Part shown: piece by piece, positions 1 to 20,046 of the stretch
Layout: the number at the start of each line of letters is the position of its first letter
Numbering within the stretch: position 1 is the first letter of the stretch
From: Clostridia bacterium
Lineage (GTDB): Bacteria; Bacillota; Clostridia; Christensenellales; CAG-314
NCBI GenBank assembly: GCA_017457385.1
Contig: JAFTHO010000045.1
Span: forward strand, 1-41,282
Direction: 5' to 3'
Length of the DNA: 41,282 bases
Notes under the pieces: generated by a model
The model's database searches: none
What the model saw: only the letters and a program-made list of their open reading frames with translations
What the model was told of the DNA's origin: nothing
Program-made: the position numbers and the translations under genes

Positions 1-2
1 TG

Positions 3-650
3 TATCAGTCGCACAAAACGTGTGACACAAACGGCATTGCACACGCATTGCTCAAAAAGTTTGGTTCACTCACAGGCATCATCAACGCAGACGTGAGCGA
101 ACTCATGACGGTAAAGGGTGTTGGCGAAAGCACAGCTACCATGATCAAAAACTATCTGGCGGTTTTTCGCAGGTATAAGGTAGAAATGATAAAAAACAAA
201 AAACGTCTGTCTACCTTTCTGGATGTTTTCAATTATACCCACACTTTGCTCGAGGAGTCTGCCAGAGAAGAACTTGTGGTAATTTGTCTTGACGGCAGTC
301 ACGAAATTGTCAACATAAAAACGTGGATTGGCTCGGTAAACAAAGTGAGCGTGCTTGCCCGCGAAATTGTTGGTTTTTGTTATGCATCAAAGGCGGTGGG
401 TGTGATCATTGCGCATTCTCATCCAACAGGTATGGCAAGACCGTCAAACAACGACTTGCTTTTTACAAAAATGTTATACAATGCGTTGCGCACAATTGAC
501 GTATCTCTTATGGAGCACATCATCATTGGCAAAGACGAATATTTTAGTTTTTACAAACAGGATTTGTTGCTAAAATATTGCGACGAATATGACGTGACGT
601 ACAAAGCATTTGGTGTGGCAAAAAATCTGCTCACCTTTACAAACGATTAA
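3..650 (+). CDS. radC: RadC/JAB-domain (UPF0758) protein, 5'-partial at window edge
   Basis: Frame is open from the window start (..DTNGIAHALLKKFGSL..). HhH motif 'VKGVGES' and JAB motif 'AHSHPTG..PSNND..EHIIIG'. Confidence 0.85.
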   Translation, partial: YQSHKTCDTNGIAHALLKKFGSLTGIINADVSELMTVKGVGESTATMIKNYLAVFRRYKVEMIKNKKRLSTFLDVFNYTHTLLEESAREELVVICLDGSHEIVNIKTWIGSVNKVSVLAREIVGFCYASKAVGVIIAHSHPTGMARPSNNDLLFTKMLYNALRTIDVSLMEHIIIGKDEYFSFYKQDLLLKYCDEYDVTYKAFGVAKNLLTFTND

Positions 651-670
651 ACAACCTTATGGAGGGATTT

Positions 671-2113
671 ATGATAAAAGAAGTTCGCACTCGTTTTGCT
701 CCAAGCCCAACGGGATATATGCACATCGGCAACCTGCGCACAGCGCTTTATGCCTATCTTTTTGCACGCAAAAACAACGGCAAGTTTATTTTGCGTATAG
801 AAGACACAGATATGGAAAGATACGTCGAAGGTGCAGTGGACATCATTTTGGACACGCTCAAAACAGTTGGCATGGACTATGACGAAGGCCCAATCGTTGG
901 TGGCGACTATGGTCCATACGTGCAAAGCCAACGCAAAAACGAATATATGAAATATGCTTTGGAACTTGTAGAAAAAGGAGAGGCATATTATTGTTTTTGC
1001 AGCAAAGAAAGACTTGAAAATCTGCCTGACGTAAACGGCGCACGCAAATATGACAAACATTGTCTGCACCTGTCTAAAGAAGAAATTCAGGCAAAACTTG
1101 ACGCAGGCGAACCTTTCGTTATCCGTCAGAATATGCCAACAGAGGGCAAAACAAAATATCACGATATGGTTTTTGGCGATATCGAAATTGACAACAGCGA
1201 GCTTGAGGACAACATTCTCATCAAGTCAGACGGTATGCCAACCTACAACTTTGCCAACGTAATTGACGACCACCTTATGAACATCACTGTGGTTATGCGT
1301 GGCATCGAATATTTGTCATCAACGCCAAAATACAACCTTTTGTACAAGGCTTTCGGCTGGGAACAACCAATGTATATGCACTTGCCACCAATCATGAAAG
1401 ATGCACAGCACAAACTTTCTAAACGAAACGGCGACGCAAGTTTTGCAGATCTTTTGGAAAAAGGCTTTTTGACAGAAGCTATCGTAAACTATATTGCTCT
1501 TCTCGGCTGGTCACCAAAAGGCAACGAAGAAAAACTTTCTATGGACGAACTCAAACAGATGTTTGGCGTAGAGGGCATTTCTAAATCACAATCTATCTTT
1601 GACGAACAAAAACTCCGCTGGCTCAACGGCAGATATATCAAAGAACTCGACTTTGACAAGTTTGTGTCTATGGCAACACCTTTCCTCGACAAATCAAAGG
1701 TGGCAGGCAAATATGACTATATCAAACTTTGCAAACTCATCCAGTCACGCATTGATACTTTGGGCGACATCCCTGACCTTGTAAACTTCCTCGAAGAGTT
1801 TGAGGCTTTTGACAACGAACTTTATACTCACAAAAAACTCAAAACAAACCCGGACGTTGCAAAAGACGTGTTGCCAAAAGTGAGAGAAAAACTTGCCTCT
1901 CTTGACGACTGGAACGAAACGTCAATTCACGACACACTCATTGGTCTTGTTGGCGAACTGGGTGTAAAAAACGGCATCGTATTGTGGCCTGTTCGTGTGG
2001 CACTCAGTGGCAAAGCAAGCACACCTGGTGGCGCAACAGAACTTGCCGACCTTTTGGGCAAAGAAGAATCTCTCCGCAGACTTGATTTTTCTATGGAATT
2101 GCTTAATAAATAA
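671..2113 (+). CDS. gltX: Glutamate--tRNA ligase
   Basis: RTRFAPSPTGYMHIGN (HIGH) and KLSKR motifs. GGAGGG SD precedes ATG 671. Confidence 0.97.
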   Translation: MIKEVRTRFAPSPTGYMHIGNLRTALYAYLFARKNNGKFILRIEDTDMERYVEGAVDIILDTLKTVGMDYDEGPIVGGDYGPYVQSQRKNEYMKYALELVEKGEAYYCFCSKERLENLPDVNGARKYDKHCLHLSKEEIQAKLDAGEPFVIRQNMPTEGKTKYHDMVFGDIEIDNSELEDNILIKSDGMPTYNFANVIDDHLMNITVVMRGIEYLSSTPKYNLLYKAFGWEQPMYMHLPPIMKDAQHKLSKRNGDASFADLLEKGFLTEAIVNYIALLGWSPKGNEEKLSMDELKQMFGVEGISKSQSIFDEQKLRWLNGRYIKELDFDKFVSMATPFLDKSKVAGKYDYIKLCKLIQSRIDTLGDIPDLVNFLEEFEAFDNELYTHKKLKTNPDVAKDVLPKVREKLASLDDWNETSIHDTLIGLVGELGVKNGIVLWPVRVALSGKASTPGGATELADLLGKEESLRRLDFSMELLNK

Positions 2114-2136
2114 AACACACTTACAAAGTATAATAA

Positions 2137-2166
2137 AAAAAGCACAGGAAAATTCCTGTGCTTTTT
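2137..2166 (+). terminator. Intrinsic terminator after gltX
   Basis: AAAAAGCACAGGAA-aa-TTCCTGTGCTTTTT hairpin with T tract. Confidence 0.8.
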
Positions 2167-2207
2167 GTTTGTAAAATTTGTTAAAATTAGGTCATAAAAA
2201 TAAAAAA

Positions 2208-2275
2208 CCTCCATCGGAGGAGGGAGGTGGATGCGAGTTTACGAGCAGACGGAGGGAGTCGAAAGTAAAAACCCT
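2208..2275 (+). repeat. Left inverted-repeat arm of cassette 1
   Basis: CCTCCATCGGAGGAGGGAGGTGGAT-GCGAGTTTACGAGC-AGACGGAGGGAGTCGAAAGTAAAAACCCT, a GC-rich island in AT-rich DNA. Confidence 0.9.
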
Positions 2276-2311
2276 CTTTTTTTATTATAAAAAATAGTGT
2301 AAACTAATGCT

Positions 2312-2668
2312 ATGAAAAAATATAATGAAAAAGGGACTCAACTTGCAAAACAATTGCGAAAAAACTCAACCCCGTGGGAAAGAAAACTATGGTATGAGTT
2401 TTTAAAAGATTATTCCACAAGATTTACACGACAAAAACCATTGGGGAATTATATTGCAGATTTTTATTGTTCCAAGGCAAAATTGGTTATAGAACTTGAT
2501 GGCAGTCAACACTTTTTGCCACAAGAAAGTCAAAAAGATTTGCAACGAACAAATGAGTTAGAAAAAACAGGTCTTTTGGTTTTGCGAATAAACAATGACG
2601 AAATTGACAAAAACTTTAACAACGTTTGTGAATATATAGATATGCAGGTTAAAGCAAGGCTAGGGTAG
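2312..2668 (+). CDS. DUF559 family (Vsr/very-short-patch-repair-like) endonuclease
   Basis: Motifs LRKNSTPWERKLW, FTRQKPLGNYIADFYC, IELDGSQH and D..RT..LE..G..VLRI.N.EI. Confidence 0.9.
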   Translation: MKKYNEKGTQLAKQLRKNSTPWERKLWYEFLKDYSTRFTRQKPLGNYIADFYCSKAKLVIELDGSQHFLPQESQKDLQRTNELEKTGLLVLRINNDEIDKNFNNVCEYIDMQVKARLG

Positions 2669-2732
2669 TTTTATTTTCGACTCCCTCCGTCTTTTCGCTA
2701 CGCTCAAATCCACCTCCCTCCTCCGATGGAGG
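2662..2732 (-). repeat. Right inverted-repeat arm of cassette 1
   Basis: Reverse complement of the left arm except for a 15-nt central spacer. Overlaps the DUF559 stop codon. Confidence 0.9.
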
Positions 2733-2803
2733 CTTTAAACAGAATGTTTTAAAATTTAGCAATTTATTAAATTGTAATAGTGTTGCTTTTTATACAAAGT
2801 AAC

Positions 2804-2838
2804 AAAAAAAAGACACGAGAAAAGCACGTGTCTTTTTT
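2804..2838. terminator. Bidirectional terminator-like hairpin
   Basis: AAAAAAGACACG..CGTGTCTTTTTT between the convergent DUF559 and SDR genes. Confidence 0.65.
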
Positions 2839-2856
2839 GTTTTGTTTTTTAGTTGC

Positions 2857-3082
2857 GTCACCACTACAACAAGTCAGCACCATAAAGGCTTTGTTTTACA
2901 ACTGCACCTCATACAGAGCCAACCTTTGGTGACTTTTTACTCGAAGTGGTGCAGTTTACATACCAGCATTTGCAAAGTTTGTTTCAACAAACAAAGTTGC
3001 ATTTTACTCGTGTTTGTCACCACTACAACAAGTCATCACCATAAAAGTTTTGTATAACAACTAAACTTTATACAGAGCCAAC
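2857..3082 (-). repeat. Tandem non-coding repeat (period 159 bp), homologous to 18011-18232
   Basis: 2857-2923 and 3016-3082 match at 58/67 positions without gaps. The reverse complement shares several ordered blocks with 18011-18232. Confidence 0.85.
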
Positions 3083-3109
3083 TCGTTCGCGCGAACTTTT
3101 GAAGTTCGC

Positions 3110-3868
3110 TTATGGACGCAATGCAGAGCCACCTTGGAGTTCGATTGTCTGACCTGTGATATAAGCAGATTCGTCACTTGCAAGGAACACGCAAACACGA
3201 CCGATATCTTCCTGTGGATCGCCAAAGCGGTGAAGTGGGATAGCAGAAAGTTGTTTTGCATACATTTCAGGGAAGGCTTCTTTCCATTGTGCAAGACCAG
3301 GTGTCATTGCGAGTGGGCAAACAACGTTTACACGAATGCCAAATTCGCCCCATTCTGTTGCAGCAGTACGGCTGAGACCACGGATGCCTTCTTTTGCAGC
3401 GCCGTATGATGACTGACCAGGTCTGCCGTGCAAACCGGCACCAGATGCAAAGTTGATGACTGTGCCTTTGCTTTCTTTAAGATAAGGGAAAGCCTCTCTC
3501 ATATACCAGAAAGAAGCATAAAGACCTGTGTAGATAGCAAGGTCAAAATCTTCGGTAGTGTGCTCTACAAGTGTGAGACCAGATTTAGAAGTTTGTGCAT
3601 TGTTTACAATGCTGTCAATGCGACCATAGTGTTCTGCAATTTTTGCAACTGCGTTTTTTACGTCAGCTTCTTTACTGCCGTCTGCAGAAACGCAAAATAC
3701 AGGCACGTTGTAGTCAGCTGTGATTTGTTGTGCTGCTTTTTCAAGTTTGTCAAGGTTGCGACCAGTGATAGCAAGGCTTGCGCCTTCTGCCGCAAAAGCA
3801 CGTGCAATGCCAAGACCAATGCCTTGACCACCACCTGTGACAACAACTACTTTGTCTTTCATTTTCAT
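3110..3868 (-). CDS. Short-chain dehydrogenase/reductase, hydroxysteroid dehydrogenase-like
   Basis: TGGGQGIG NAD(P)-binding motif, NNA and catalytic YGAAK. AAGGAG SD before ATG 3868. Confidence 0.9.
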   Translation of the reverse strand: MKMKDKVVVVTGGGQGIGLGIARAFAAEGASLAITGRNLDKLEKAAQQITADYNVPVFCVSADGSKEADVKNAVAKIAEHYGRIDSIVNNAQTSKSGLTLVEHTTEDFDLAIYTGLYASFWYMREAFPYLKESKGTVINFASGAGLHGRPGQSSYGAAKEGIRGLSRTAATEWGEFGIRVNVVCPLAMTPGLAQWKEAFPEMYAKQLSAIPLHRFGDPQEDIGRVCVFLASDESAYITGQTIELQGGSALRP

Positions 3869-4176
3869 AGGCGTGTTCTCCTTGTGGATAATATAGATAA
3901 CAAAATTATATTGTAAAAAAGTGCAAAAAGCAAACAAAAACAGGGTGTGTTGCAAAACGTTATCTTTTTGACAGATTGAAACAAAAACAAAAAAAGTGTT
4001 TCATATGAACAAAACCTTGTTTAAACAAAAAAACAGATGGATATTAACAAAAGACACAAATTTGAACAAAAAATCTATACAAAATTTATACAGCGGTATG
4101 AATAAAATTGCAAACAATAAAAAAATATCGACAAAAGTCGACAAAGTGTAGTATAATGACGCAACAAGGTGTAAAA

Positions 4177-5796
4177 ATGACGTTTATACAAAAAGCACAA
4201 AATTTTATAAACAGCCTTTCTTTTGTATATGCAGTGGCACTTGCCGTTGCGTTGATATGGCTCATAGGGTGGGAGATTGCCGGCTTTTTTATGCTGGTGG
4301 CTTTTGCATGCACAACGTTGCTTTTGCAACGCAATGCAACGCCATTTGTGGTGATAACAAGCCTTGTTACATATTGTCTGTCACTCAAACAGGTGCCTGC
4401 ATCTATCGAGACAGGCCGTGTGCCGGCAGATTTTGTGTGGCTTGCAGTTGCTCTCATGGTGCTTTTTGCATATATGATTTTTTGCGTGGTATATCACAAG
4501 AAAAAATATCCACGTCAAAACAACAAATTTTTAAACCTTGGCACAAGTTTTGCTTTTTGTCTTGTTGCACTTGCACTTGCAGGTCTTTTTTCTGACCAGT
4601 TCAGTTTTGGCAACAACGCAATAGTGGTTGTGCTTTATGCATTGCTTTTTGTTATATATCTTGTGTTGTCATCAGGTGACATACCAGATTATAAAAAACT
4701 GATTGCTCACATTATTGTGGCGGTGGGCCTTGTTATCAGTTTTGAAGTTATCGTCACAATTGCAAACTGCCCTGACCCAATCACTTACGTGGCACGCAAA
4801 ATGTGGGTTGTTGGATGGGGTGGCCCAAACAACGTTGCAACGACAATGTGTTTTTGCATCATGATGGCATTTTATCTTTGCCTTTCAAACGAAAACCCGT
4901 TGTATCTTGTGCTTGCGGCATGTTTTGTGGTGATAGAGTTGCTCACAGTGAGCAGAGGCAACATATATTCTTTGTTCCTTATCATGCCGTTTGTGGGTGT
5001 GTATGGTTTTGTAAAAACAAAACGCAAAAAAGCAATGGCACTCACCTTGCTGGCAATAGTGGCAGTAGTGGCATTGTTTGTATATACAAATCAGTCGCTT
5101 ATTGACAAACTGTTTGAGGTGATGAGAGAAAAAGGTCTGGAAAACACACCACGACGTGCTTTGTGGGGATATTTTGTAGACTTGTTCAACAACAACAAAC
5201 TGTTTGGTGCAGGCTTTTTCGATCCTGTTTCAAGCACAATGTACAAACCTCATGCAATACTGGTGCACATTTTGTCAGGCATGGGCATTTTTGGTCTGCT
5301 TGTGTTTGGCTATCATTATTATCGCAAATATATCATATTGCTCAGCCATGGCTCTGCATTTCGTTTTTTTGCAGTGATGGTTTGCTATCAGTTGTTTATG
5401 TACAGCGTGATAGATATGGATTTTTATATGATATATCAAAACTTTCTGGTGCTTGGCGTGCTTGAGGCTCTCAAACAAGAGAGAGAAGAGCTTGGCAAAA
5501 CAACACCTATTCTGCACGTGCCGGTGTGGGCAAACGTTGTCATCTGTCTGCTTGGCATAGCCCTTGCAATCGTTGGCACGGTGTTTGTGTCAGACGCCAT
5601 CGTGTGGGAAGAAGGTCTTGGATGGTGCCTGTGGGAAATTGACTATATCATCACCTTTGCGTGTTACGTAGTGGGTGGTGTGGCATTGTTTATCAGCTGG
5701 GGCAACCTGTGGCGCAACAACCTTAAACCGGTTGTAAAACCAAAACTAAAACAACTGCTCGCAAAAATTTTTGGCAACAAACAGACAAACAAATAA
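4177..5796 (+). CDS. Polytopic membrane protein, O-antigen ligase/Wzy-like
   Basis: Many hydrophobic segments plus 'GWGGPNN', 'TVSRG', 'R..LW..F..N.LFGAG', 'H..LVHIL..MGIFG'. Confidence 0.7.
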   Translation: MTFIQKAQNFINSLSFVYAVALAVALIWLIGWEIAGFFMLVAFACTTLLLQRNATPFVVITSLVTYCLSLKQVPASIETGRVPADFVWLAVALMVLFAYMIFCVVYHKKKYPRQNNKFLNLGTSFAFCLVALALAGLFSDQFSFGNNAIVVVLYALLFVIYLVLSSGDIPDYKKLIAHIIVAVGLVISFEVIVTIANCPDPITYVARKMWVVGWGGPNNVATTMCFCIMMAFYLCLSNENPLYLVLAACFVVIELLTVSRGNIYSLFLIMPFVGVYGFVKTKRKKAMALTLLAIVAVVALFVYTNQSLIDKLFEVMREKGLENTPRRALWGYFVDLFNNNKLFGAGFFDPVSSTMYKPHAILVHILSGMGIFGLLVFGYHYYRKYIILLSHGSAFRFFAVMVCYQLFMYSVIDMDFYMIYQNFLVLGVLEALKQEREELGKTTPILHVPVWANVVICLLGIALAIVGTVFVSDAIVWEEGLGWCLWEIDYIITFACYVVGGVALFISWGNLWRNNLKPVVKPKLKQLLAKIFGNKQTNK

Positions 5797-5811
5797 ATAT
5801 CGGCAAAAAAT

Positions 5812-5843
5812 AAAAAACGGACGTGATTTCACGTCCGTTTTTT
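5812..5843. terminator. Bidirectional terminator
   Basis: AAAAAACGGACGTGA-tt-TCACGTCCGTTTTTT between convergent genes. Confidence 0.8.
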
Positions 5844-7228
5844 TATTTTTTGTTTTCTTTCATTTGGCGTTTTGTTATTTTTGCTCTGGCTTTTTTTACA
5901 AACTTGGTGTTTTTGCGACCTTTTCTCACACGTTTGCGGTGGTGTTCCAATGCATGGCGCATGTTCTTTTTGCCTTTAAAAATTGGGTTTTGCTCGTTTT
6001 TGGCAATTACGTCCATATATATTTCGTATGCCATCAAAGCAATTTCGTTCCATTTTTTATACAGCGTCTGTTTTGCACACAAGCCAACTTTTTGCAAAAG
6101 GTCTTTGTCTGCCATGAGTGTGGCTATCTTTTTTGCCATATTGACAGGGTTGTCGTCACACAAAAATCCGTTTGTGTCGTCTGTCACACCGCATGCGGCA
6201 TTGCTGCCCGCAAGCAAAAGACTTGGTGTTTCAAATGCGGCTGCCTCATATTTTACCACGCCGTCGCTGTCGTATACGCTAGGGAACAAAAACAAGTCTG
6301 CCCTGCAATACAACGATTTGAGCAAGGTCTGGTCAAGCACTTTGCCTGTCATCAAAACTTTGTCCTGCAGGTTGTATGCTTTTATTTTTTCTTTAAGACG
6401 GCTTTTTTCGTCACCGTCGCCGACGTATATCATCCTGAAGTTTGTTTGCGTTTTTGACAGGTGATAAATTGCATCAAGGATGAGATATATGTTTTTTGGT
6501 TTTATCAGTCTGCCAACAAACAGCAACACAGTTTCGTCAGGTGACAAACCATACGTCTGGTTGCAGATGTTTTTCAGTTCGTCAAGGTCGCCGTCGTAAG
6601 ACATATCCGTGCCGTTTGGCAAAATTTTTACGTCTCCGTTAAAGCCATATGACCTCAAAGTGTCACGGGTGGCTGTGTTCATTGTGAGCACCACGTCAGA
6701 CAAGTGAAAAACTTTCATGATAGCGTCAAGTGCAACGTTTTTGAGGCTGTCAAGCTTTAGCACACGTTTGAGATCCTGGTGATATTGCGTGTGGAAAGTT
6801 GACACAACGGGTATATGCCTTTCGTTGGCATATTCTATCATAAACCTGCCCGTAAAGTATGGGCTGTGTATATGTATAAGGTCAATGTTTAGTCTGTCAA
6901 GCAGACGACGGAATTTTTTGTCGTTTTTTGCATGGCTGTAGTCATATCTCAACGGATGAAAATAGGTTGAGTTGCAAAACAAAACTGCAGTGTCACAAAG
7001 TGGCACCTTCCATCTGTGGGTAGGGGCGCACACAAGCACGTTGACCTTGTCTTTAAGGTTTTTTGCATAGTTGTCAATAACAGTCAGCACGCCGTCAACT
7101 ATTGGATAATAGTTGTCGTTTACAATGACTATTGTTTTTTTGCCATTGTTGTTAAACTCATCAATGACTTTTTCCATCTCAAGGTAATATTGTTTTTTGC
7201 CTTGACTGTCCAGTTTTTTGTATTCCAT
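5843..7228 (-). CDS. GT4 family glycosyltransferase (glycolipid synthase-like)
   Basis: DNYYPIVDGV, HIHSPY, TFHTQY, LFVGRL..KN and DLFLFPS.YD..GVV..EAAA motifs. Confidence 0.88.
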   Translation of the reverse strand: MEYKKLDSQGKKQYYLEMEKVIDEFNNNGKKTIVIVNDNYYPIVDGVLTVIDNYAKNLKDKVNVLVCAPTHRWKVPLCDTAVLFCNSTYFHPLRYDYSHAKNDKKFRRLLDRLNIDLIHIHSPYFTGRFMIEYANERHIPVVSTFHTQYHQDLKRVLKLDSLKNVALDAIMKVFHLSDVVLTMNTATRDTLRSYGFNGDVKILPNGTDMSYDGDLDELKNICNQTYGLSPDETVLLFVGRLIKPKNIYLILDAIYHLSKTQTNFRMIYVGDGDEKSRLKEKIKAYNLQDKVLMTGKVLDQTLLKSLYCRADLFLFPSVYDSDGVVKYEAAAFETPSLLLAGSNAACGVTDDTNGFLCDDNPVNMAKKIATLMADKDLLQKVGLCAKQTLYKKWNEIALMAYEIYMDVIAKNEQNPIFKGKKNMRHALEHHRKRVRKGRKNTKFVKKARAKITKRQMKENKK

Positions 7229-7318
7229 ACTACCTCTTTATTTCAAATACACATACAATATTATATCACGCACTTGAAAAGTATGCAAGGGTGGTTTTTG
7301 GTTAAACAAAACAAACAA

Positions 7319-7462
7319 TCAGCTCACAAAGTGGGTGGGGTTGTAGCAGGTTGGGCAAAGGTGATGATTTTGTTTTGAGCAGTCGGGGCATACCACGTCG
7401 TTGCATTTGTTGCACACACAAAAGTCTTTGTCCAGTTGTTTTTTGCAGTTAAAACACTTCAT
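7319..7462 (-). CDS. 47-aa Cys-rich putative zinc-finger microprotein (absent from ORF track)
   Basis: Manual translation: MKCFNCKKQLDKDFCVCNKCNDVVCPDCSKQNHHLCPTCYNPTHFVS*, with four CxxC motifs. Confidence 0.7.
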   Translation of the reverse strand: MKCFNCKKQLDKDFCVCNKCNDVVCPDCSKQNHHLCPTCYNPTHFVS

Positions 7463-7593
7463 GTCAAAAGGATATCCTTTTTTTGCAAAATCAAACAAAA
7501 CAAAAACTTTGTTGACACTATCAACAAAATTTGCACGGTATTTGCAAAACGTATGGACTTTTGAAAAAAAATAAACTATAATTAATTAACTAT

Positions 7594-8823
7594 ATGAAAG
7601 AAAAACAAAAAACGGTTGAACAAGAGTCTTTCGAACAAAAGATGACCATAGCCGAGCAGGAGTTTAAACTCAAACAGGCAGACAACACGGCAAAACAGTT
7701 AGAAGACAGAAAGAGCAAAGCAAACAAATTTGGCTATTTCTTTTTGTTGCTTACCGTAATTGCGCTTGTTGTCATTGCCGTGAGTGAGTTTAACAACAAC
7801 GAAGAGTATCCTTTGTCACTTGTGCTCAGCACCTGGGGACAAAACTGGCATTATATTCTGGCAGCAGTGGGATGCATTGTTTTATTGCTGTTTTTTGACG
7901 GTTTTCGTCAGTCTGTGCTTTTGCGTGGTTCAACGGGCAAGTGGCGTTTAAAGCTCACCTTTAAAAGCATGATTCTCGGCAGATATTTTGACAATATCAC
8001 ACCGTCTGCTATTGGCGGACAACCTTATCAGGTGTATTATCTGCACAAACACAAAGTGCCTGCAGGCATTGCAACAAGTTTGCCTGTGGTGTGCTTTTTT
8101 ATGCAACAGTTTGCATTTTTTGTGCTTGTTGTCATTTGCTTTGCGGTGTTTGGCCCAATTGTAGACAATCCATGGCTCAAAGTGGCAATCTATTTTGGCT
8201 CTTTGTGTATGATAGCAATGCCGTTGTCTATCATGATTTTTGCCTTTATACCAAAAACTGCACAAAAAATTGTTCGTGGCATTATTTTGCTTTTAAACAA
8301 AATAAAAATCGTCAAAAACAAAGAGGTTTTGATGTACAAATTTGACAACTACGTCAACGACTACAGCAAAAGCCTCAAAATCATAGGTGGACACAAAAAA
8401 ACACTCATCACAAGTTTTTTGTGTGCGCTTGTTTGTCAGTTGCTCAACTATTCGGTAGTATATTTTATCGTGCTTGCCAGTGGCGAAAGTCTGCCATGGT
8501 TTTACGTAATTGCACTTATGGCATATACTTCTGCCGCAAGTGCCTTTATACCAACACCTGGTGGCTCTGGTGCGATGGAAGGTTTCTTTTATCTCATCGT
8601 GTCTGTGCTGGTGGGTGGCTTTAGGTTCTGGGGCATGCTGTTGTGGCGTATACTCACCTTTTATATCCCGACAATCGTTGGTCTGGCAGTGCTTGTCAAC
8701 AACACAATCAAAGACAAAAGTTATCGCAGAAGGGGGTTGTTGCGCACCTCTTCGGATGACGACGATCAAAGTTTGATTGCAAGTGCCAATCCAGACGAAA
8801 AACAAGAAAATCAAGACGGCTGA
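7594..8823 (+). CDS. Lysylphosphatidylglycerol synthase TM / flippase-like membrane protein
   Basis: GRYFDNITPSAIGGQP, IPTPGGSGAMEG and LLWRILTFY motifs. Confidence 0.85.
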   Translation: MKEKQKTVEQESFEQKMTIAEQEFKLKQADNTAKQLEDRKSKANKFGYFFLLLTVIALVVIAVSEFNNNEEYPLSLVLSTWGQNWHYILAAVGCIVLLLFFDGFRQSVLLRGSTGKWRLKLTFKSMILGRYFDNITPSAIGGQPYQVYYLHKHKVPAGIATSLPVVCFFMQQFAFFVLVVICFAVFGPIVDNPWLKVAIYFGSLCMIAMPLSIMIFAFIPKTAQKIVRGIILLLNKIKIVKNKEVLMYKFDNYVNDYSKSLKIIGGHKKTLITSFLCALVCQLLNYSVVYFIVLASGESLPWFYVIALMAYTSAASAFIPTPGGSGAMEGFFYLIVSVLVGGFRFWGMLLWRILTFYIPTIVGLAVLVNNTIKDKSYRRRGLLRTSSDDDDQSLIASANPDEKQENQDG

Positions 8824-8903
8824 CCGCCGTCTTTTTTTGTGTCAAAAATAGCAAAAAATATTTTGTTTGTGTGCGGTCTGCTTTTTGTGTGGGTTTTTAA
8901 AAA

Positions 8904-9659
8904 TCACATGGTCACACAAGACAGCAAAAATGGCAATACCATATATGGGGCAAATTTTGCAAACTCGCCTTTTTGAGATATTTTTTTGAGCAAGCCAAGT
9001 GACAAAAAACCAAAAACAAAACTTGTGACAACACCCACCGCAACGGCAGGGATATCCACAGTTGCGTTTGTGCTCAAAACGTCTGGCAGGGTCAAAACTA
9101 TACTGCCCAGAATTACAGGTATGCTCATAAGAAAAGACAACTCGGTTGCGCTGTCGTTTTTTGTTCCACACCACTTTAGCAGGCATATTGTTGCGCCACT
9201 GCGTGACAACCCGGGCAACACGGCAATGCCTTGCACCACACCGCACAGCAATGCAGTTTTGTATTTTGTGGTCAGCAAATTGTGTTTTTGTTTTGTGGCA
9301 AACTGACTTGTGCACAACAAACCAAAAGTGAGTGCAAAACCAACGGGCAACAAAAGCCCATCCAAAAGGGATGGCAAAAAAAGTTTGGCAAGCAACCCGA
9401 TGGCAACTGTGGGTATGGTTGCAAGGTATACAAGTTTTGCTTTTTTGCAAAAGGGGTGAGTTAGCAACTGCCACACCTGTTTTTTATAAAACAACAAAAC
9501 TGCCACCAGAGTGCCAAAATGCAAAGATACGTTCAAAAACAAATCCGGCGACAAACCAAACAGTTTTTGCACCAAAATCAAATGCCCACTGCTTGATACA
9601 GGCAAAAACTCTGTCAAACCTTGCACAACACCAAGCACAAAACTGCAAAAAACTGACAT
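8904..9659 (-). CDS. uppP: Undecaprenyl-diphosphate phosphatase
   Basis: QGLTEFLPVSSSGHL and PGLSRSGAT motifs. Confidence 0.93.
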   Translation of the reverse strand: MSVFCSFVLGVVQGLTEFLPVSSSGHLILVQKLFGLSPDLFLNVSLHFGTLVAVLLFYKKQVWQLLTHPFCKKAKLVYLATIPTVAIGLLAKLFLPSLLDGLLLPVGFALTFGLLCTSQFATKQKHNLLTTKYKTALLCGVVQGIAVLPGLSRSGATICLLKWCGTKNDSATELSFLMSIPVILGSIVLTLPDVLSTNATVDIPAVAVGVVTSFVFGFLSLGLLKKISQKGEFAKFAPYMVLPFLLSCVTM

Positions 9660-9802
9660 ATACCACCCTAACAAATAGTCAAAACAAATTTTTTTTGATA
9701 TAATAAATCTATATATGGTCAATTTTTGCCTTTTTTGCAAAAACAAAACCATATTAAATTATATTAGTTAAAACAAAACAAAATGTTTTTTGGGAGAGAA
9801 AT

Positions 9803-10900
9803 ATGAAACTTGGCGTAGTAGGTTTGCCAAACGTTGGCAAAAGTACACTTTTTAATGCAATCACACACGCAGGGGCAGAAAGCGCAAACTATCCGTTTTG
9901 CACAATCGAGCCAAACGTTGGCATCGTTGACGTGCCGGACGAAAGACTTGACAAACTTGCGGCACTTTACAACAGCAAAAAAATCACTCACACTTTTTTA
10001 AAGTTTGTTGACATTGCCGGTCTTGTAAAGGGTGCATCAAAAGGCGAAGGTCTTGGCAACAAGTTTTTGAGCCATATCCGTGAGGTTGACGCTATCGTGC
10101 ACGTTGTTCGTTGTTTTGAAGACAGCAACATCACTCACGTAGAGCAATCTGTTGACCCGGTGAGAGATATGGAAATCATCAATCTCGAACTTATCCTTGC
10201 CGACCTCGAAAGCGTCACAAAATATCTCGACAAAGCAAAAAACATGCAAAAAACAGGTGACAAAAAATACAAAATCGAGGCAGAAATTTTGCAACGTCTG
10301 CTTTCTGCACTCGAACAAGGTTTGCCTGTGCGCTCAGTAGAGCTTGACGAAGAAGAAAAAGCATACGTAGACGGATTGTTTCTCATCACAGACAAACCTG
10401 TCATCTATGCCGCAAACATTGCCGAAAGCGATCTTGCCACAGACGAAGACAGTTTGCCACTTGTTGCAAAACTCAAAGAACAAGCCGCTAAAGAAAATGC
10501 AGAAGTTTTGGTAATCTGCGCCAAGGTAGAAGAAGACTTGTCTATGATGGAGGATGACGACCGTGCAATTTTTTACGAAGAGTTTGGCATTAAAGAGTCT
10601 GGCCTCAACCGTCTTGTAAAAAAATGCTACACTTTGCTTGGTCTCATTTCTTATCTCACTGCAGGCGAGCCAGAAACACGTGCATGGACAATTGCAAACG
10701 GCACAAAAGCACCACTGGCAGCAGGCAAAATCCACAGCGATTTTGAGAAAGGCTTTATCAGGGCAGAGGTAGTGCCATATGAAGTTTTGCTTGAATGTGG
10801 AAATTACAACAATGCAAAAGCAGAGGGCAAGGTGCGCAGCGAAGGTAAAGATTACGTTATGAAAGACGGCGACGTCGTCTTGTTCCGCTTTAACGTATAA
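9803..10900 (+). CDS. ychF: Redox-regulated ATPase YchF
   Basis: [39 protein letters not shown] and C-terminal FRFNV. Confidence 0.97.
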
Positions 10901-10998
10901 TAATCAAAAAAACACAGCCATACATGGCTTTGTTTTTTGAAAAATAAAATTGCGCAAAACAAACTTGCATACACAATTATCCAAAGAAAAGAAGAGTT

Positions 10999-11523
10999 AT
11001 GTTAGAAATCAGAAAAGCAAAAACAGAAGAGATCCAAAGAGTTGTCAATTATTATCACAACGTTATCGACGCTATGGAAGGCTCGATGTACAACCCTTGC
11101 TGGAAAAAGAACATTTATCCAAGTGATGCCTATATCGAAAAAGCAATCATCGACCAAAACATGTTTTTGGGTTTTGACGATGGTCGCATTGCAACTGCAA
11201 TGATGCTTGACAACAAGGCAAACCCGGGCTACGTTGACGTCGACTGGCAAAGAGAGTTTCCTCAGCACGAAATTATGGTGGTGCACATTTTTGGCGTGCA
11301 TCCATATTTTACGGGCAAAGGTTATGCAAAAAAAATGCTGGCAAGGGCTATCGAATATGCCAAAGAAAAAAATCAAAAAGCATTGCGTCTTGACGTTTTG
11401 AGTGGCAGTGTGCCTGCAAAAAGACTTTACGAAAAAATGGGCTTTAAAGAAGTGCAGACAATAGACATGTTTTACGAAGATACAGGCTGGACAAAATTTG
11501 ACCTGTATGAATATCTTTTGTGA
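10999..11523 (+). CDS. GNAT family N-acetyltransferase
   Basis: VHPYFTGKGYA motif A and A.RLYEKMGF motif B. Confidence 0.88.
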   Translation: MLEIRKAKTEEIQRVVNYYHNVIDAMEGSMYNPCWKKNIYPSDAYIEKAIIDQNMFLGFDDGRIATAMMLDNKANPGYVDVDWQREFPQHEIMVVHIFGVHPYFTGKGYAKKMLARAIEYAKEKNQKALRLDVLSGSVPAKRLYEKMGFKEVQTIDMFYEDTGWTKFDLYEYLL

Positions 11524-11553
11524 TTGATTTTTAACTTTTTTATACATAAAACC

Positions 11554-11580
11554 AAAGCACGGCAAAAGCCGTGCTTTTTT
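11554..11580 (+). terminator. Terminator hairpin, copy 1 of an identical 27-bp repeat
   Basis: AAAGCACGGCAAAAGCCGTGCTTTTTT. Confidence 0.85.
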
Positions 11581-11637
11581 GTGTTGAAAACACACGCAAA
11601 CAGTGATAATATATAAAAAAACGATATAGGTGTTGAT

Positions 11638-12141
11638 ATGAAAAAAGTTTTGATTGTAATTGATATGCAAAATGATTTTATAACAGGTGCACTTGCAAAC
11701 AAAGATGCACTTGCCATTGTAGAATCCGTTGCGCAAATGGTGGCAAATTTTGATGGCGACGTTATTGCCACGAGAGATACTCATGGGGCAGATTATCTCA
11801 ACACGACAGAAGGAAAACTTTTGCCAGTAGAACATTGTATTGCTGGCAGTGACGGTTGGCAAATTGTTGACAAAATAAAAACAGAAATTGACAAAAAGGG
11901 TGGAATAGTGATAGACAAGCCAACTTTTGGATACAAAGACTGGCAACTTGACGGCTATGACGTTGCAGAAATAGTCGGCACTTGCACAGATATTTGTGTT
12001 GTCAGCAATGCACTTATTTTAAAGGCACTTTATCCGGATATGCAAGTGGTGGTGCACGGAAGTTTGTGTGCTGGGCTTACTCCACAAAAACATGCACATG
12101 CACTTGACGTAATGGCAAGTTGTCAATGCAAAGTGATTTAA
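11638..12141 (+). CDS. pncA: Cysteine hydrolase, nicotinamidase/isochorismatase family
   Basis: IDMQNDF, TRDTH, PVEHC..GS.GW, DKPTF and GTCTDICV. Confidence 0.8.
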   Translation: MKKVLIVIDMQNDFITGALANKDALAIVESVAQMVANFDGDVIATRDTHGADYLNTTEGKLLPVEHCIAGSDGWQIVDKIKTEIDKKGGIVIDKPTFGYKDWQLDGYDVAEIVGTCTDICVVSNALILKALYPDMQVVVHGSLCAGLTPQKHAHALDVMASCQCKVI

Positions 12142-12268
12142 AACAAAAAACCAATCGCTAAAAGGTATTTTTTAAGTTTGTTTTGTTGCGATTGGTTTAA
12201 ATTAGTGTTAAAATTTTTGGGCATAGTTTAAAATTACCCTGCTTTTTGCAGGTTTTTGGAGAAATATT

Positions 12269-13672
12269 ATGGAAAGAGAAAAACTTGGCAGTCGTCTTGG
12301 CTTTATTTTGCTCAGTGCCGGCTGTGCAATTGGTGTTGGCAACGTGTGGAAGTTCCCATGGATGGTTGGCCAATACGGTGGTGGTATATTTGTTCTTATT
12401 TATTTGTTCTTTCTTGTCGCTATGGGCATTCCTGTAATGACAATGGAGTTTTCGCTTGGTCGTGCAAGTCAAAAAAGCCCTGTCAAACTTTATGACGCAC
12501 TTGCTCCAAAAAACAGCAAATGGAAGTTGCACGGTTGGGCAGCGCTTGTGGGCAACGTTGTGCTCATGATGTTTTACACAGTTGTTACAGGCTGGCTTTT
12601 GCAATATTTTGTAAAAATGATAAAAGGCGACTTTAAAGGTCTTGACAGTGCTGGCGTAAGTGGTGAGTTTGGCAATATGGTCAGCGACCCTGGCATGATG
12701 ACTTTGTTTGTTGCTATCGTTGTTGTGGTTGGCTTTTTGGTGCTTTCTTTCGGCGTTAAAAACGGTTTGGAAAAAGTAACAAAGGTAATGATGCTTGCTT
12801 TGCTTGCAATTATGGTGGTGCTTGCCTTTAACGGATTTTTCCTTGACGGTGCGGCAGAAGGCCTCAAATTTTATCTCATACCAAACTTTGACACAATGGC
12901 AGATGCCGGTATAAATATTTTTCAGGTTATAACTGCTGCAATGAGTCAGGCATTTTTTACTTTGTCACTTGGCATTGGCTCTATGGCTATTTTTGGCAGT
13001 TATCTTGGCAAAGACAGATCACTCATGGGCGAATCTGTAAACGTTGCTATTTTGGATACTTGCGTTGCTTTGGTTGCAGGCCTTATTATCTTCCCTGCAT
13101 GCTTTACTTACAACAACGGCAACGTAAACGCAGGCCCTGCACTTATTTTCGAAACTTTGCCAAACGTGTTCAACCATATGCCACTTGGTCAGTTGTGGGG
13201 CAGTTTGTTCTTTTTGTTCCTTTCTTTTGCGGCACTTTCTACAATCTTTGCCGTGTTTGAAAACATCCTTGCATGTATACAGGACATTACAAACTGGTCA
13301 CGCAAAAAAATCTGCATAGTTGCAGGTATAGGTTTGTTTGTGTTGTCAATCCCATGTGTGCTTGGCTTTAACCTGTGGGCTGGTTTTGAACCTTTTGCCT
13401 TTGTAAAACCTGGCACAAACATTATGGATCTTGAAGACTTTATCGTGTCAACTTTGTTGTTGCCAATTGGCTCGCTCATTTTTGTGTTGTTCTGCACAAG
13501 CAAAAAAGGCTGGGGATGGGACAACTTTGTGGCAGAGGCAAACACAGGCAAAGGTTTTAAAGTAAAACCTTGGATGAAAACTTATATGAAATACGTTTTG
13601 CCAGTGCTTTTATCAATCTTTATCGTCATCAGCATAGTCACTTTCTTCTGGCCAAACATTTTTGCATTTTAA
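12269..13672 (+). CDS. Sodium-dependent transporter (NSS/SNF family)
   Basis: GCAIGVGNVWKFP and QAFFTLSLG motifs; multiple TM segments. Confidence 0.93.
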   Translation: MEREKLGSRLGFILLSAGCAIGVGNVWKFPWMVGQYGGGIFVLIYLFFLVAMGIPVMTMEFSLGRASQKSPVKLYDALAPKNSKWKLHGWAALVGNVVLMMFYTVVTGWLLQYFVKMIKGDFKGLDSAGVSGEFGNMVSDPGMMTLFVAIVVVVGFLVLSFGVKNGLEKVTKVMMLALLAIMVVLAFNGFFLDGAAEGLKFYLIPNFDTMADAGINIFQVITAAMSQAFFTLSLGIGSMAIFGSYLGKDRSLMGESVNVAILDTCVALVAGLIIFPACFTYNNGNVNAGPALIFETLPNVFNHMPLGQLWGSLFFLFLSFAALSTIFAVFENILACIQDITNWSRKKICIVAGIGLFVLSIPCVLGFNLWAGFEPFAFVKPGTNIMDLEDFIVSTLLLPIGSLIFVLFCTSKKGWGWDNFVAEANTGKGFKVKPWMKTYMKYVLPVLLSIFIVISIVTFFWPNIFAF

Positions 13673-13683
13673 TATAACAAATT

Positions 13684-13710
13684 AAAGAGTGTCTTTCGAC
13701 ACTCTTTTTT
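13684..13710 (+). terminator. Intrinsic terminator
   Basis: AAAGAGTGTC-tttc-GACACTCTTTTTT. Confidence 0.85.
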
Positions 13711-13723
13711 GTTGCCTTTTGTG

Positions 13724-13752
13724 TTGCAAAAAAGCGTATATGGTGCTAAAAT
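13724..13752 (+). promoter_or_regulatory. Sigma-A-type promoter of the riboswitch leader
   Basis: TTGCAA-17 bp-TAAAAT with extended -10 TG. Confidence 0.6.
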
Positions 13753-13773
13753 TTTGTCAAACAAAACAGTGCA

Positions 13774-13951
13774 TAAAGAAGACGCACCTTTTGAGTGCGT
13801 GACTCAACTGCGGTTGAGCCCAGGGAATGCAGTGCAAATCTGCAACAGCCCCCGCTACTGTATGTGGCTACGTGTTTTTATATCCATTGCCCCTTTGGGG
13901 TGAGAAGGCAAAAACGTCGGCTATGCCACAAAGTCAGGAGACCTTTCTTTA
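13774..13951 (+). ncRNA. Cobalamin (AdoCbl) riboswitch
   Basis: GGGAATGCAGTGCAAATCTGCAACAGCCCCCGCTACTGTA core and AGTCAGGAGACC B12 box. P1 is TAAAGAAG/CTTTCTTTA. Probable attenuator hairpin at 13999-14029. Confidence 0.92.
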
Positions 13952-14068
13952 AACAATGCACAAAGATACTATCTTCGGAGGGAAGAGGGTGCTTTTTTGA
14001 TGGACGTATGCGTGGTAGTCCGTCTTTTTGCAACTGCTCTTTCGGGCAGTTTTTTTGTTTATCCGTTT

Positions 14069-14151
14069 AAAGGCTCCAGTTGCGTTTTGCTAAAGCAAAT
14101 TCGCAATATTGCGAAGGAGGGAGCTGTCGCGCAAGCGACTGAGGGAGTCGA
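14069..14151 (+). repeat. Solo arm of the DUF559-associated repeat family
   Basis: AAAGGCTCC...GGGAGCTGTCGC-gcaa-GCGACTGAGGGAGTCGA matches the left arm of cassette 2. Its 3' end matches the left arm of cassette 1. Confidence 0.85.
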
Positions 14152-14212
14152 TATGACTCAAAAATTTTGTTTTATGCCCGAAACAACCTCTCCATATTTT
14201 GGAGGAAATTTT

Positions 14213-14689: not shown

Positions 14690-14690
14690 T

Positions 14691-15212: not shown

Positions 15213-15430
15213 AAGAAAAGTTTGTTGCTTTTGCAACAGGTCAGAGCTATAACGTGATTGATTTTTGTTGATACAAATTAAAAAAGCCTTCCTCTTAAAA
15301 AAGGATAAGGCTTTTTTTGTTGCATATTGACATTGGTTTTTATATTTTATAAAATAATTAAAAACAATCCTGATATTTGCGACAATTTTTGTTGGGCAAA
15401 TTAATACCGTGTTATTAAGGAGGGGGATAA

Positions 15431-16348: not shown

Positions 16349-16370
16349 AACAAAAAAAACAAAAACAAAA

Positions 16371-16395
16371 AAAAGGGACGATTTTTCGTCCCTTT
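16371..16395. terminator. Bidirectional terminator
   Basis: AAAGGGACGA-tttt-TCGTCCCTTT between convergent genes. Confidence 0.75.
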
Positions 16396-16401
16396 AGTTT
16401 T

Positions 16402-17937: not shown

Positions 17938-18010
17938 ATATTTTACCTCAAATTTTATTGTGCCTAAATTATACAGTCAAAAATGATATTTGTAAATAGG
18001 GCACACTTAC

Positions 18011-18232
18011 AAAGTGTGCAAAAGTATGCTTTGAATATGGTTTCTTTGTGAAACAAAGCTTTTATAGTGCTGACAAATTGCAGAGGCACACGAACACGAG
18101 TAAAAGGTTTGTTAACAACACACAGCAAGGGCTGATATGTTGCTATACCACTTCGAGTTAAAGTGTGCAAGAGTTGGCTCTGTATATAGTACCATTGATA
18201 CACAAAACTTTTATGGTGCTGACAAATTGCAG
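18011..18232 (+). repeat. Tandem non-coding repeat (period 149 bp), homologous to 2857-3082 (minus)
   Basis: 18011-18083 and 18160-18232 match at 59/73 positions without gaps. Confidence 0.85.
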
Positions 18233-18263
18233 CGACTCACAAGATGAACACATTATTAAAAAA

Positions 18264-18781
18264 GGCTCCTCCTGACGGGGGAGCTGTCGCACGAATGGGC
18301 GACTGAGGGAGAGATAACCTGCACAAAAACAATAAAATATGTTATACTTTAACTATGAAAGAATACAACAAAAACAACACCAAAAAAGCACAATATCTTC
18401 GCAAAAATGCAACCCCATGGGAAAGAAAGTTGTGGTATGAATTTTTGAAAGACTATCCAATACGTTTTCAGCGACAAAAACCAATAGACAATTTTGTGGC
18501 AGATTTTTATTGTGCAAAGGCAGGCATTGTTTTAGAACTTGATGGTGGCGAACATTTTTCGTCGCAAACGTTGCAATATGATCAGATGAGAACAGAAATA
18601 TTGCAAAAAAAAGGTGTAAAAGTAGTCAGAATTTGCAACAACGAAATTGACAAAAATTTTGAAGGTGTTTGCGAATATATAGATGATATTGTAAAACAAA
18701 ATTTAAAGAGCAGATAACAAGCATACGTCATCTCTCCCTCAGTCTGGCATACGCCAGCCAGCTCCCCCGTCAGGAGGAGCC
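18264..18781. mobile_element. DUF559 cassette 2: endonuclease gene bounded by long inverted repeats
   Basis: 18264-18286 is the perfect reverse complement of 18759-18781 (23 bp), and 18301-18315 of 18730-18744 (15 bp). Mobility is inferred. Confidence 0.6.
18355..18717 (+). CDS. DUF559 family endonuclease, paralog 2
   Basis: LRKNATPWERKLW, FQRQKPIDNFVADFYC and LELDGGEH. 73/118 residues identical to 2312-2668 by manual ungapped alignment. Confidence 0.9.
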   Translation: MKEYNKNNTKKAQYLRKNATPWERKLWYEFLKDYPIRFQRQKPIDNFVADFYCAKAGIVLELDGGEHFSSQTLQYDQMRTEILQKKGVKVVRICNNEIDKNFEGVCEYIDDIVKQNLKSR

Positions 18782-18879
18782 CTTTTTATTTTGTCTTTGC
18801 TGTTGGTTTTGTTGTCAGTTTGCAATTTAAGGACAATATCGTTTATGCGAGGTTTTTGAAATCCTGCCTGCATAAAAAT

Positions 18880-19943: not shown

Positions 19944-20046
19944 ACTAAAACCTATTAAAAAAAGTTGTTTAATAGACAAGTTTTTTTTAAAGTGTTATAC
20001 TAAAACATAATGTAGTTAAAAATATATATTTTTATAGAGGTAAAAT

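What the first reader, a model, noticed from the sequence alone, without database searches (positions are those of the whole stretch)
2857..3082. A ~150-160 bp non-coding tandem unit sits beside both DUF559 cassettes and shows a covarying stem
Seen: 2857-3082 (period 159) read on the minus strand and 18011-18232 (period 149) on the plus strand share these blocks in the same order: ACAAAACTTTTATGGTG(C/A)TGAC, AACACGAGTAAAA (13/13; 3002-3014 vs 18093-18105), GCTG.TATGT, ACCACTTCGAGT.AAA and GTTGGCTCTGTAT (13/13), separated by variable segments. The conserved core is enclosed by a stem whose sequence differs while pairing is kept: AACTGCACC/GGTGCAGTT (2900-2908/2948-2956) versus TGCTATA/TATAGTA (18141-18147/18185-18191). 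I found this unit nowhere else in the window. Inference: a structured ncRNA or ssDNA repeat that is either part of the DUF559 system (guide, scaffold or antitoxin) or its preferred landing site. It could also be an unrelated MITE sharing the same intergenic hotspots.
Basis: partly seen in the sequence, partly recalled or inferred. Interest (0 to 1): 0.82.

Follow-up and report, generated by a model that had tools for sequence, protein, structure and literature searches.

The report
Dispersed 3'-UTR hairpin repeat, not DUF559-linked
The ~150-base unit beside both DUF559 genes is one array form of a repeat family scattered through this gut Clostridia genome and one sister species, usually wedged between a gene's stop codon and its terminator, and it occurs independently of DUF559.

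Summary
Two tandem arrays (2857-3091 minus strand, 18001-18240 plus strand) share ordered blocks and occur nowhere else in the window. The unit is a ~75-nt core (M1) plus a ~70-85-nt linker (M2). The core has 39 nhmmer or 43 covariance-model matches at 28 loci in this 1.57-Mb assembly. A congener has 36 matches and no DUF559 gene. Four relatives with DUF559 have no repeat. At both orthologous loci the congener carries the repeat without the cassette. In 13 of 27 copies here and 9 of 16 in the congener, H1 starts 0-5 nt after the stop codon of a same-strand ORF (null 2.6%). Strong terminators follow 13 of 27 arrays. Congeners without the repeat have stop codon then terminator at the same genes. 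Best reading: an old, lineage-restricted REP/BOX/ERIC-like repeat carried in 3' UTRs. It shares intergenic regions with the DUF559 "arm" repeats more often than chance (6 regions, p=7e-5).

The parts
3091..3109 (-). H1 hairpin of the first copy at locus A (8-bp stem, 3-nt loop), directly abutting the TAA stop (3110-3112) of the SDR gene
   Evidence: Sequence read; stop ends 2 nt before the first paired column; H1 covariation
3016..3090 (-). M1 core, copy 1 of locus A
   Evidence: nhmmer 3020-3091, E 1.5e-14; covariance model 3009-3122, E 2.8e-17
2936..3015 (-). M2 linker of locus A. It starts with the CACGAGTAAAA block, has its own internal hairpin, and ends in a long-loop H1 variant that contains the CTTCGAGT block
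   Evidence: Alignment; fold; internal-copy listing
2857..2935 (-). M1 core, copy 2 (internal) of locus A
   Evidence: nhmmer 2861-2935, E 8.6e-17; model 2848-2947
2808..2840 (.). Intrinsic terminator hairpin flanked by A and T runs, 25 nt downstream of the locus A array in the array's orientation
   Evidence: Custom terminator scan; sequence
3110..3955 (-). Short-chain dehydrogenase gene whose 3' UTR carries the locus A array
   Evidence: ORF; Pfam adh_short_C2, E 4.5e-56
18001..18019 (+). H1 hairpin of the first copy at locus B. It lies next to the -35 box of the divergent promoter of gene 17635-17937
   Evidence: Sequence; promoter-like site 17996-17968 on the minus strand, 11 of 12
18012..18091 (+). 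M1 core, copy 1 of locus B
   Evidence: nhmmer 18012-18086, E 2.3e-15; model 17988-18098, E 1.1e-19
18092..18159 (+). M2 linker of locus B
   Evidence: Alignment; listing
18160..18240 (+). M1 core, copy 2 (internal) of locus B
   Evidence: nhmmer 18161-18234, E 6.5e-19; model 18133-18247
2198..2736 (+). Neighbour, not part of the repeat: DUF559 gene (2312-2668) between inverted 'arm' repeats (2198-2270 and 2669-2736)
   Evidence: I5 and I13; Pfam DUF559, E 1.5e-31; absent at the G001 ortholog
18257..18788 (+). Neighbour, not part of the repeat: DUF559 gene (18355-18717) between inverted 'arm' repeats (18257-18318 and 18727-18788)
   Evidence: I2; Pfam DUF559, E 2.9e-27; absent at the G001 ortholog

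Best explanation
The 149/159-nt 'unit' is one array form of a modular, structured, dispersed repeat family confined, among the genomes searched, to this species and one sister species. A ~75-nt core (M1) opens with a 7-bp hairpin (H1; conserved inner stem, variable covarying outer stem). The core stands alone or alternates with linker modules (M2 and others) to give arrays of 2-3 cores. Shown: the copy number, the distribution, the independence from DUF559, the covariation in H1, and the typical placement. In that placement H1 starts 0-5 nt after the stop codon of a same-strand gene and the gene's intrinsic terminator follows the array. Congeners without the repeat have stop codon then terminator at the same genes. 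Inferred: the element entered the stop-to-terminator gap in the common ancestor of the two species. Paralogs are only about 62% identical, while the best between-species pairs are 79-90% identical. Also inferred: the element is now co-transcribed as part of the 3' UTR. Its hairpin is kept either because the terminating ribosome must melt it (as for E. coli REPs within 15 nt of a stop codon) or because it shapes mRNA 3'-end stability. It lies beside both DUF559 cassettes because those cassettes, bounded by a second dispersed 'arm' repeat family, were added later in this species into intergenic regions that already held the repeat.
For: Copy number: 39 nhmmer hits at 28 loci and 43 covariance-model matches. 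Distribution: BLAST and the model hit 2 of 41 genomes, G000 and G001. An exact-pattern scan of the species-representative genome collection hit only contigs of one other Clostridia MAG. Independence from DUF559: there are 2 DUF559 genes in G000 and none in G001-G004 by protein and by Pfam, and the 4 relatives with DUF559 lack the repeat. G001 orthologs: locus A has a solo M1 right after the SDR stop and no cassette; locus B has H1 plus about 35 nt of M1 and no cassette. H1 structure: pair 16:36 is GC 21/CG 16, pair 17:35 is AU 23/GC 14, pair 18:34 is CG 34/UA 6. Over H1 plus S2 together, 66 cells changed on both sides against 28.3 in shuffles (0 of 500 shuffles as high), and 83% of cells pair against 40-47% when partners are slid. 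RNAalifold predicts H1 on its own. Strand hint: G-U 40 versus A-C 18 in stem S2 on the given strand. Placement: 13 of 27 copies in G000 and 9 of 16 in G001 have an ORF of at least 80 codons whose stop ends -5 to +1 nt from H1, against 2.6% of random intergenic positions. A terminator with a stem of at least 8 bp lies 12-70 nt after 13 of 27 arrays. Empty sites: for two genes with identical C-termini, G002-G004 have the stop followed by a terminator within 4 to about 40 nt, whereas G000 and G001 have the stop followed by H1. Age: mean paralog identity is 62% (maximum 81%), and the best G000-G001 pairs are 79-90%. Analogy: REPs within 15 nt of a stop codon stall ribosomes (passages of PMC12306157 citing Liang et al. 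2015), and ERIC repeats are co-transcribed and affect transcript stability (passages of PMC2229807).
Against: No transcription data exist: no RNA run holds the locus, so co-transcription and any RNA-level role are inferred from position only. About half of the copies are not next to a stop codon. In intergenic regions between tandem genes I count by hand roughly 6 sense, 5 antisense and 1 mixed locus, so orientation is not strictly tied to transcription. Locus B itself is antisense to both host genes. H1 is weak (mean -5.5 kcal/mol). No transposase candidate was found (Y1/RAYT family, 0 of 5 genomes). Neither terminal inverted repeats nor target duplications could be defined, so mobility rests on presence/absence and copy-number differences only. 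Covariation among 43 related copies may partly reflect a few founder subfamilies. Gene calls come from my own crude ORF and codon-usage caller. Both repeat-bearing assemblies are fragmented (206 and 190 contigs), so counts are lower bounds. The significant co-occurrence with arm repeats leaves a physical link possible.
Confidence: 0.75

Rival explanations
1. Landing pad: the arm-bounded DUF559 element integrates preferentially next to M1 arrays. The nuclease or the arms would recognise the repeat or its hairpins, so the adjacency is mechanistic even though the repeat does not depend on DUF559.
For: Both cassettes are G000-specific additions beside M1 copies that also exist at the G001 orthologs. 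Arm repeats and M1 share 6 of 702 intergenic regions (27 with M1, 21 with arms; Fisher p=6.7e-5; p=2.3e-4 among regions of at least 250 nt). In 5 of these 6 regions the arm's outer end faces the 3' end of the M1 array (my reading of coordinates).
Against: 15 of 21 arm-bearing regions have no M1 and 21 of 27 M1 regions have no arm. Spacing ranges from 19 to 345 nt with no fixed junction. At locus A a terminator and about 120 nt separate arm and array. Both families favour gene 3' ends, and repeats lengthen the regions they sit in, which inflates co-occurrence. Arm copies are present in G001 without any DUF559 gene.
Confidence: 0.1
2. Purely selfish, decaying MITE-like DNA with no RNA-level role. 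The hairpins would be relics of what an unknown, now lost transposase recognised, and stop-codon proximity would reflect only the narrow harmless gap between stop codon and terminator.
For: The family is old and diverged (62% mean identity, none above 81%). Truncated and internally deleted copies exist: G001 locus B, a G001 remnant after gene A and C60:707. Empty sites show that the stop-to-terminator gap is only about 4-40 nt, so few positions are tolerated. Copies occur in both orientations.
Against: After that much divergence, the seven H1 pairs from columns 16-22 still form standard pairs in most sequences, with compensatory changes. That argues for continuing selection on the hairpin. The 5' junction lies within 0-5 nt of the stop in 22 copies, while the 3' side lies 12-70 nt from the terminator, which a merely permissive gap does not predict. 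No transposase candidate was found.
Confidence: 0.12
3. ncRNA or ssDNA partner of DUF559 (guide, scaffold or antitoxin).
For: Both of the genome's DUF559 genes lie within about 120-190 nt of an array. At locus B the array is on the same strand and upstream of the cassette.
Against: There is a double dissociation across genomes. About 26 further loci have no DUF559. At locus A the array is on the opposite strand, behind a terminator, in another gene's 3' UTR. The repeat predates the cassettes.
Confidence: 0.02

Closest known systems
REP/BIME elements of enterobacteria, in particular REPs lying within 15 nt of a stop codon
   Same: These are high-copy extragenic hairpin repeats, mostly at gene 3' ends inside transcription units. 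A large fraction lie within a ribosome footprint of the stop codon. That placement is reported to stall terminating ribosomes and lower translation, and REPs are also reported to stabilise upstream mRNA (passages of PMC12306157).
   Different: No sequence relation was seen. No RAYT/Y1 transposase was found (0 of 5 genomes). The unit is about 75-160 nt and modular rather than a 20-40-nt palindrome. H1 is shorter and weaker than typical REP stems. The host is a Clostridia lineage.
BOX elements of Streptococcus pneumoniae (recalled from my own knowledge, not seen in any call)
   Same: Both are modular Firmicutes intergenic repeats built from distinct boxes, with a variable number of internal modules, and are predicted to fold into stable structures.
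   Different: There is no evidence of sequence homology. BOX elements are not known to me to abut stop codons. The module order here is hairpin-core-linker-core.
ERIC/IRU and Correia/NEMIS miniature insertion sequences
   Same: They are about 100-170-nt dispersed repeats that are co-transcribed with flanking genes. Their RNA stem-loops alter transcript stability, and for ERIC a ribosome-dependent conformational change has been proposed (passages of PMC2229807).
   Different: Those elements have terminal inverted repeats and, for Correia, TA target duplications. Neither could be shown here. They are proteobacterial.

Membership tests
Any Rfam RNA family | Match to a curated covariance model at or above its gathering score | tested here: not met
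   The only gathering-level hit in the window is a cobalamin riboswitch at 13786-13964. Permissive scans of both loci gave only sub-threshold chance-level matches (best 23 bits against a 55-bit cut-off).
DUF559-associated RNA or DNA component | Co-occurrence with DUF559 genes across loci and genomes | tested here: not met
   28 loci against 2 DUF559 genes in G000. G001 has 36 matches and no DUF559. Four genomes with DUF559 have no repeat.
REP/REPIN (RAYT-mobilised) | Short imperfect palindrome in high copy number in extragenic space | tested here: met
   H1 is a 7-bp hairpin with 43 model matches, all outside called genes but for one doubtful ORF extension.
REP/REPIN (RAYT-mobilised) | A cognate Y1 (RAYT) transposase gene in the genome | tested here: not met
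   PF01797 found in 0 of 5 genomes of the genus, while the control rang in 6 of 14 reference genomes. The assemblies are about 95% complete.
MITE | Terminal inverted repeats and target-site duplications | tested here: inconclusive
   By eye, the 3' end repeats the 5' arm of H1 in direct orientation, so it is not a classical terminal inverted repeat. The 3' boundary is fuzzy. Filled and empty sites are too diverged to read duplications.
MITE | Presence/absence polymorphism at orthologous sites | tested here: met
   For genes A and B, the sites are filled in G000 and G001 and empty in G002-G004. G000 and G001 also differ in presence and copy number.
BOX-like modular repeat | Distinct modules combined in variable number and order | tested here: met
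   18 loci are solo cores and 10 are arrays. Start-to-start spacings range from about 67 to 272 nt, and at least two linker types are used.
BOX-like modular repeat | Sequence homology to boxA, boxB or boxC | not tested
   No BOX sequence was available from a tool, so the comparison is by architecture only and the BOX description is recalled.

The most novel reading that the evidence does not exclude
The family is a domesticated, genome-wide 3'-UTR module that senses translation termination. H1 sits inside the footprint of the ribosome reading the last codons, so each termination event melts it. That would switch the folding of the downstream core and linker, and so set mRNA decay or the protein yield of some twenty genes at once. 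The arm-bounded DUF559 element would exploit the same sites.
Probability: 0.15. Interest if true: 0.6.

Novelty: new member of a known kind. Interest (0 to 1): 0.3.

Why it matters
It removes a tempting but wrong link between an uncharacterised nuclease family and a 'guide-like' RNA. It also documents a previously undescribed structured repeat family in an uncultured gut Clostridia lineage. The family's placement is unusually tight, with a hairpin 0-5 nt after the stop codon and the terminator following the array. That makes it a natural test bed outside E. coli for how hairpins next to stop codons affect termination and mRNA stability. Such repeats also fragment metagenome assemblies: the two genomes that carry the repeat have about 200 contigs, against about 20 for their repeat-free congeners. 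They can also be mistaken for system-specific RNAs.

Tried and rejected
Tandem Repeats Finder at minimum score 30 did not list either array.

Rfam gave nothing for the loci.

RNA evidence: no RNA holder was listed among 20 runs.

Laying Logan contigs of 4 DNA runs on window 1-20000 gave only short pieces and ambiguous repeat-associated joints, for example 18028 to 18202 in one run with a 27-letter side. I draw nothing from this.

The Y1 transposase search found none. Other transposase families were not searched.

A third helix (GTGC...GCAC around the TTGCAG block) and pairing of the core's 3' end with the 3' arm of H1 were considered by eye. I dropped them because the all-pairs covariation scan gave them no convincing support.

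Whole-array folds are stable on both strands (z -2.2 to -3.8), so they do not identify the functional strand.

RNAalifold on a first 56-row alignment that included internal copies returned no structure. After restricting to 43 copies with canonical H1 it returned H1.

The exact insertion boundaries could not be read from G000-G001 comparisons because the intergenic DNA is too diverged.

Literature: a paper on Enterococcus faecalis repeats that I recalled was not found in the library. The term 'REP sequences' had no occurrence in the held text of PMC5009743. Liang et al. 2015 was seen only as cited in PMC12306157. Supplementary files were not consulted.

Full report
**Observation.** Every coordinate and string in the finding checks against the sequence.
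- The repeat finder reports the two tandem pairs: D17 at 2857/3016 (67 nt, 87%, spacing 159) and D9 at 18011/18160 (81 nt, 79%, spacing 149). It also reports the inverted matches between the two loci (I1, I3).
- The reverse complement of 2840-3110 aligns to 17990-18255 with 81% column identity and the named blocks in the same order.
- Tandem Repeats Finder lists neither array.
- Rfam has no family for them. The window's only gathering-level hit is a cobalamin riboswitch at 13786-13964.

**Anatomy.** Iterated nhmmer over the laid genome (1.57 Mb, 206 contigs, 40% G+C) shows that the repeated thing is a ~75-nt core, which I call M1.
- M1 has 39 copies on 20 contigs, in 28 loci. A covariance model later found 43 matches. 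Only four copies lie in the window.
- Copies shown in register reveal a hairpin, H1, at the 5' edge. It is followed by a conserved GGCTC-containing block, a second weaker stem (S2), and a conserved GGTGCTGAC block before a TTGCAG block at the 3' end.
- 18 loci are solo cores and 10 are arrays of 2-3 cores joined by linkers.
M2 starts with the CACGAGTAAAA block and ends in a long-loop version of H1 that contains the CTTCGAGT block. Other arrays use a different linker and have other spacings.

**Structure.** I aligned 43 copies with canonical H1 from this genome and its congener (A2).
- H1 covaries strongly: pair 16:36 is GC 21/CG 16, pair 17:35 is AU 23/GC 14/CG 2, pair 18:34 is CG 34/UA 6, and pair 20:28 is CG 36/UA 5.
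- Over H1 and S2 together, 66 cells changed on both sides against 28.3 in shuffles (0 of 500 shuffles as high). 83% of cells pair, against 40-47% when partners are slid.
- RNAalifold independently returns H1 and nothing else.
- S2 has moderate support (pair 65:82 is UA 21/CG 10/UG 8).
- S2 shows more G-U than A-C cells on the given strand (40 versus 18), which is a weak hint that this strand is the one that folds.
It is excellent at locus A (-16.7 kcal/mol) and ordinary at locus B (-7.3). Over nine internal copies, cognate partners beat non-cognate ones only marginally (p=0.056).
- Whole arrays fold stably on both strands.

**Independence from DUF559.**
- The assembly has exactly two DUF559 genes, both in the window (tblastn; Pfam).
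- Among 41 related genomes, the repeat is found only in G000 and in G001 of the same genus, by BLAST (23 and 18 matches) and by the covariance model (43 and 36 matches).
- G001 is 95% complete and has no DUF559 by protein or family search.
- G024, G027, G035 and G039 have DUF559 homologs but no repeat.
- An exact-pattern scan of the species-representative genome collection hit only contigs of one other Clostridia MAG (L100-L103).
- At the G001 ortholog of locus A, the gltX terminator is followed directly by a solo M1 that abuts the SDR stop codon, and there is no cassette. At the ortholog of locus B there is H1 plus about 35 nt of M1 and no cassette.
- So the repeat was present at both sites before the cassettes.

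**Genomic placement.** Gene calls here come from my own crude ORF and codon-usage caller.
- 13 of 27 canonical-H1 copies in G000 and 9 of 16 in G001 have a same-strand ORF of at least 80 codons whose stop codon ends between -5 and +1 nt of the first H1 pair. All three stop codons are used. The same is true of 2.6% of random intergenic positions.
- A strong intrinsic terminator (stem of at least 8 bp plus a T run) lies 12-70 nt after 13 of 27 single-orientation arrays, and I see two more by eye.
- Two genes with conserved C-termini give clean filled-versus-empty comparisons. In G002-G004 the stop codon is followed by a terminator within 4 to about 40 nt. In G000 and G001 the same stop position is followed at once by H1. 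For one of these genes, G000 and G001 carry different H1 variants at the same site. For the other, G001 retains only a ~24-nt remnant.
- The other half of the copies lie elsewhere. Some are antisense to their neighbours, and three, including locus B, lie next to the -35 box of a divergent promoter.

**Age and mobility.**
- Paralogs are on average 62% identical (maximum 81%), while the best G000-G001 pairs are 79-90% identical. The family therefore spread before these two species split and after they split from G002-G004.
- Copy number and presence differ between orthologous sites.
- No Y1/RAYT transposase was found in the genus.
- Terminal inverted repeats and target duplications could not be established.

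**Why it sits beside DUF559.**
- The cassette 'arms' are themselves a dispersed family of 26 copies at about 22 loci. Two inverted arm pairs have no gene between them (C13:15673-15848 and C71:372-537). Arm copies also occur in G001.
- Arms and M1 share 6 of 702 intergenic regions (27 with M1, 21 with arms; Fisher p=6.7e-5).
- This is real clustering, but 15 of 21 arm regions lack M1, the spacing varies from 19 to 345 nt, and both families favour gene 3' ends.
- I read it as shared permissive territory (about 0.75-0.8). A true landing-site preference is a minor rival (about 0.1).

**Mechanism.**
- Shown: a structured, dispersed repeat, unrelated to DUF559, that typically occupies the gap between stop codon and terminator.
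- Inferred: it is co-transcribed as 3' UTR. H1 lies within the footprint of the terminating ribosome and is kept by selection. It may modulate termination or translation, as reported for E. coli REPs within 15 nt of a stop (passages of PMC12306157 citing Liang et al. 2015). It may instead affect transcript stability, as proposed for ERIC (passages of PMC2229807).
- No RNA data were available.

**Verdict.** This is a new member of the known class of small structured intergenic repeats. Its one noteworthy property is the tight abutment to stop codons.

Noticed in passing
window 2198-2736 and 18257-18788; G000 C13:15673-15848 and C71:372-537: The ~56-70-nt 'arms' flanking each DUF559 gene belong to a dispersed family of 26 copies at about 22 loci. 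Two inverted arm pairs are only about 60 nt apart with no gene between them, like non-autonomous derivatives of a DUF559-carrying element. The outer end of each arm looks like an outward-facing terminator hairpin. Arm copies also occur in G001, which has no DUF559 gene.
   Followed up: partly
window 2167-2856 versus G001:C164 (locus L020): Relative to the congener, this genome's extra DNA at locus A runs beyond the arms. It includes about 30 nt to the left of the left arm and about 100 nt to the right of the right arm, with a second terminator (2808-2840) and a second M1 copy. So the arms may not be the exact ends of what was inserted, or several events occurred.
   Followed up: partly
G000 C110:10341-10675: Two M1 cores lie in inverted (convergent) orientation about 200 nt apart between two same-strand genes. 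This REPIN-like arrangement is unlike the head-to-tail arrays elsewhere.
   Followed up: no
G001:C57:14050-14160 (locus L096): One congener copy starts 1 nt after a TATAAT box with a suitably spaced -35-like hexamer. The orthologous G000 site has the promoter-like boxes but no repeat, so this copy may be transcribed as a leader or as a stand-alone RNA.
   Followed up: no
window 13786-13964: Cobalamin riboswitch on the plus strand (84 bits) upstream of ORFs 13997-15212.
   Followed up: no
window 11540-11600, 26704-26764, 38666-38726: Three copies of the same terminator hairpin with similar flanks (D3). Closely similar terminator hairpins also follow several M1 arrays on other contigs. Terminator sequences in this genome look like a repeat family of their own.
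   Followed up: no
G000 and G001 versus G002-G004: The two repeat-bearing assemblies have 206 and 190 contigs, while three repeat-free congeners of similar size have about 20 each. Several M1 copies lie at contig ends, which suggests these repeats break short-read assemblies.
   Followed up: no
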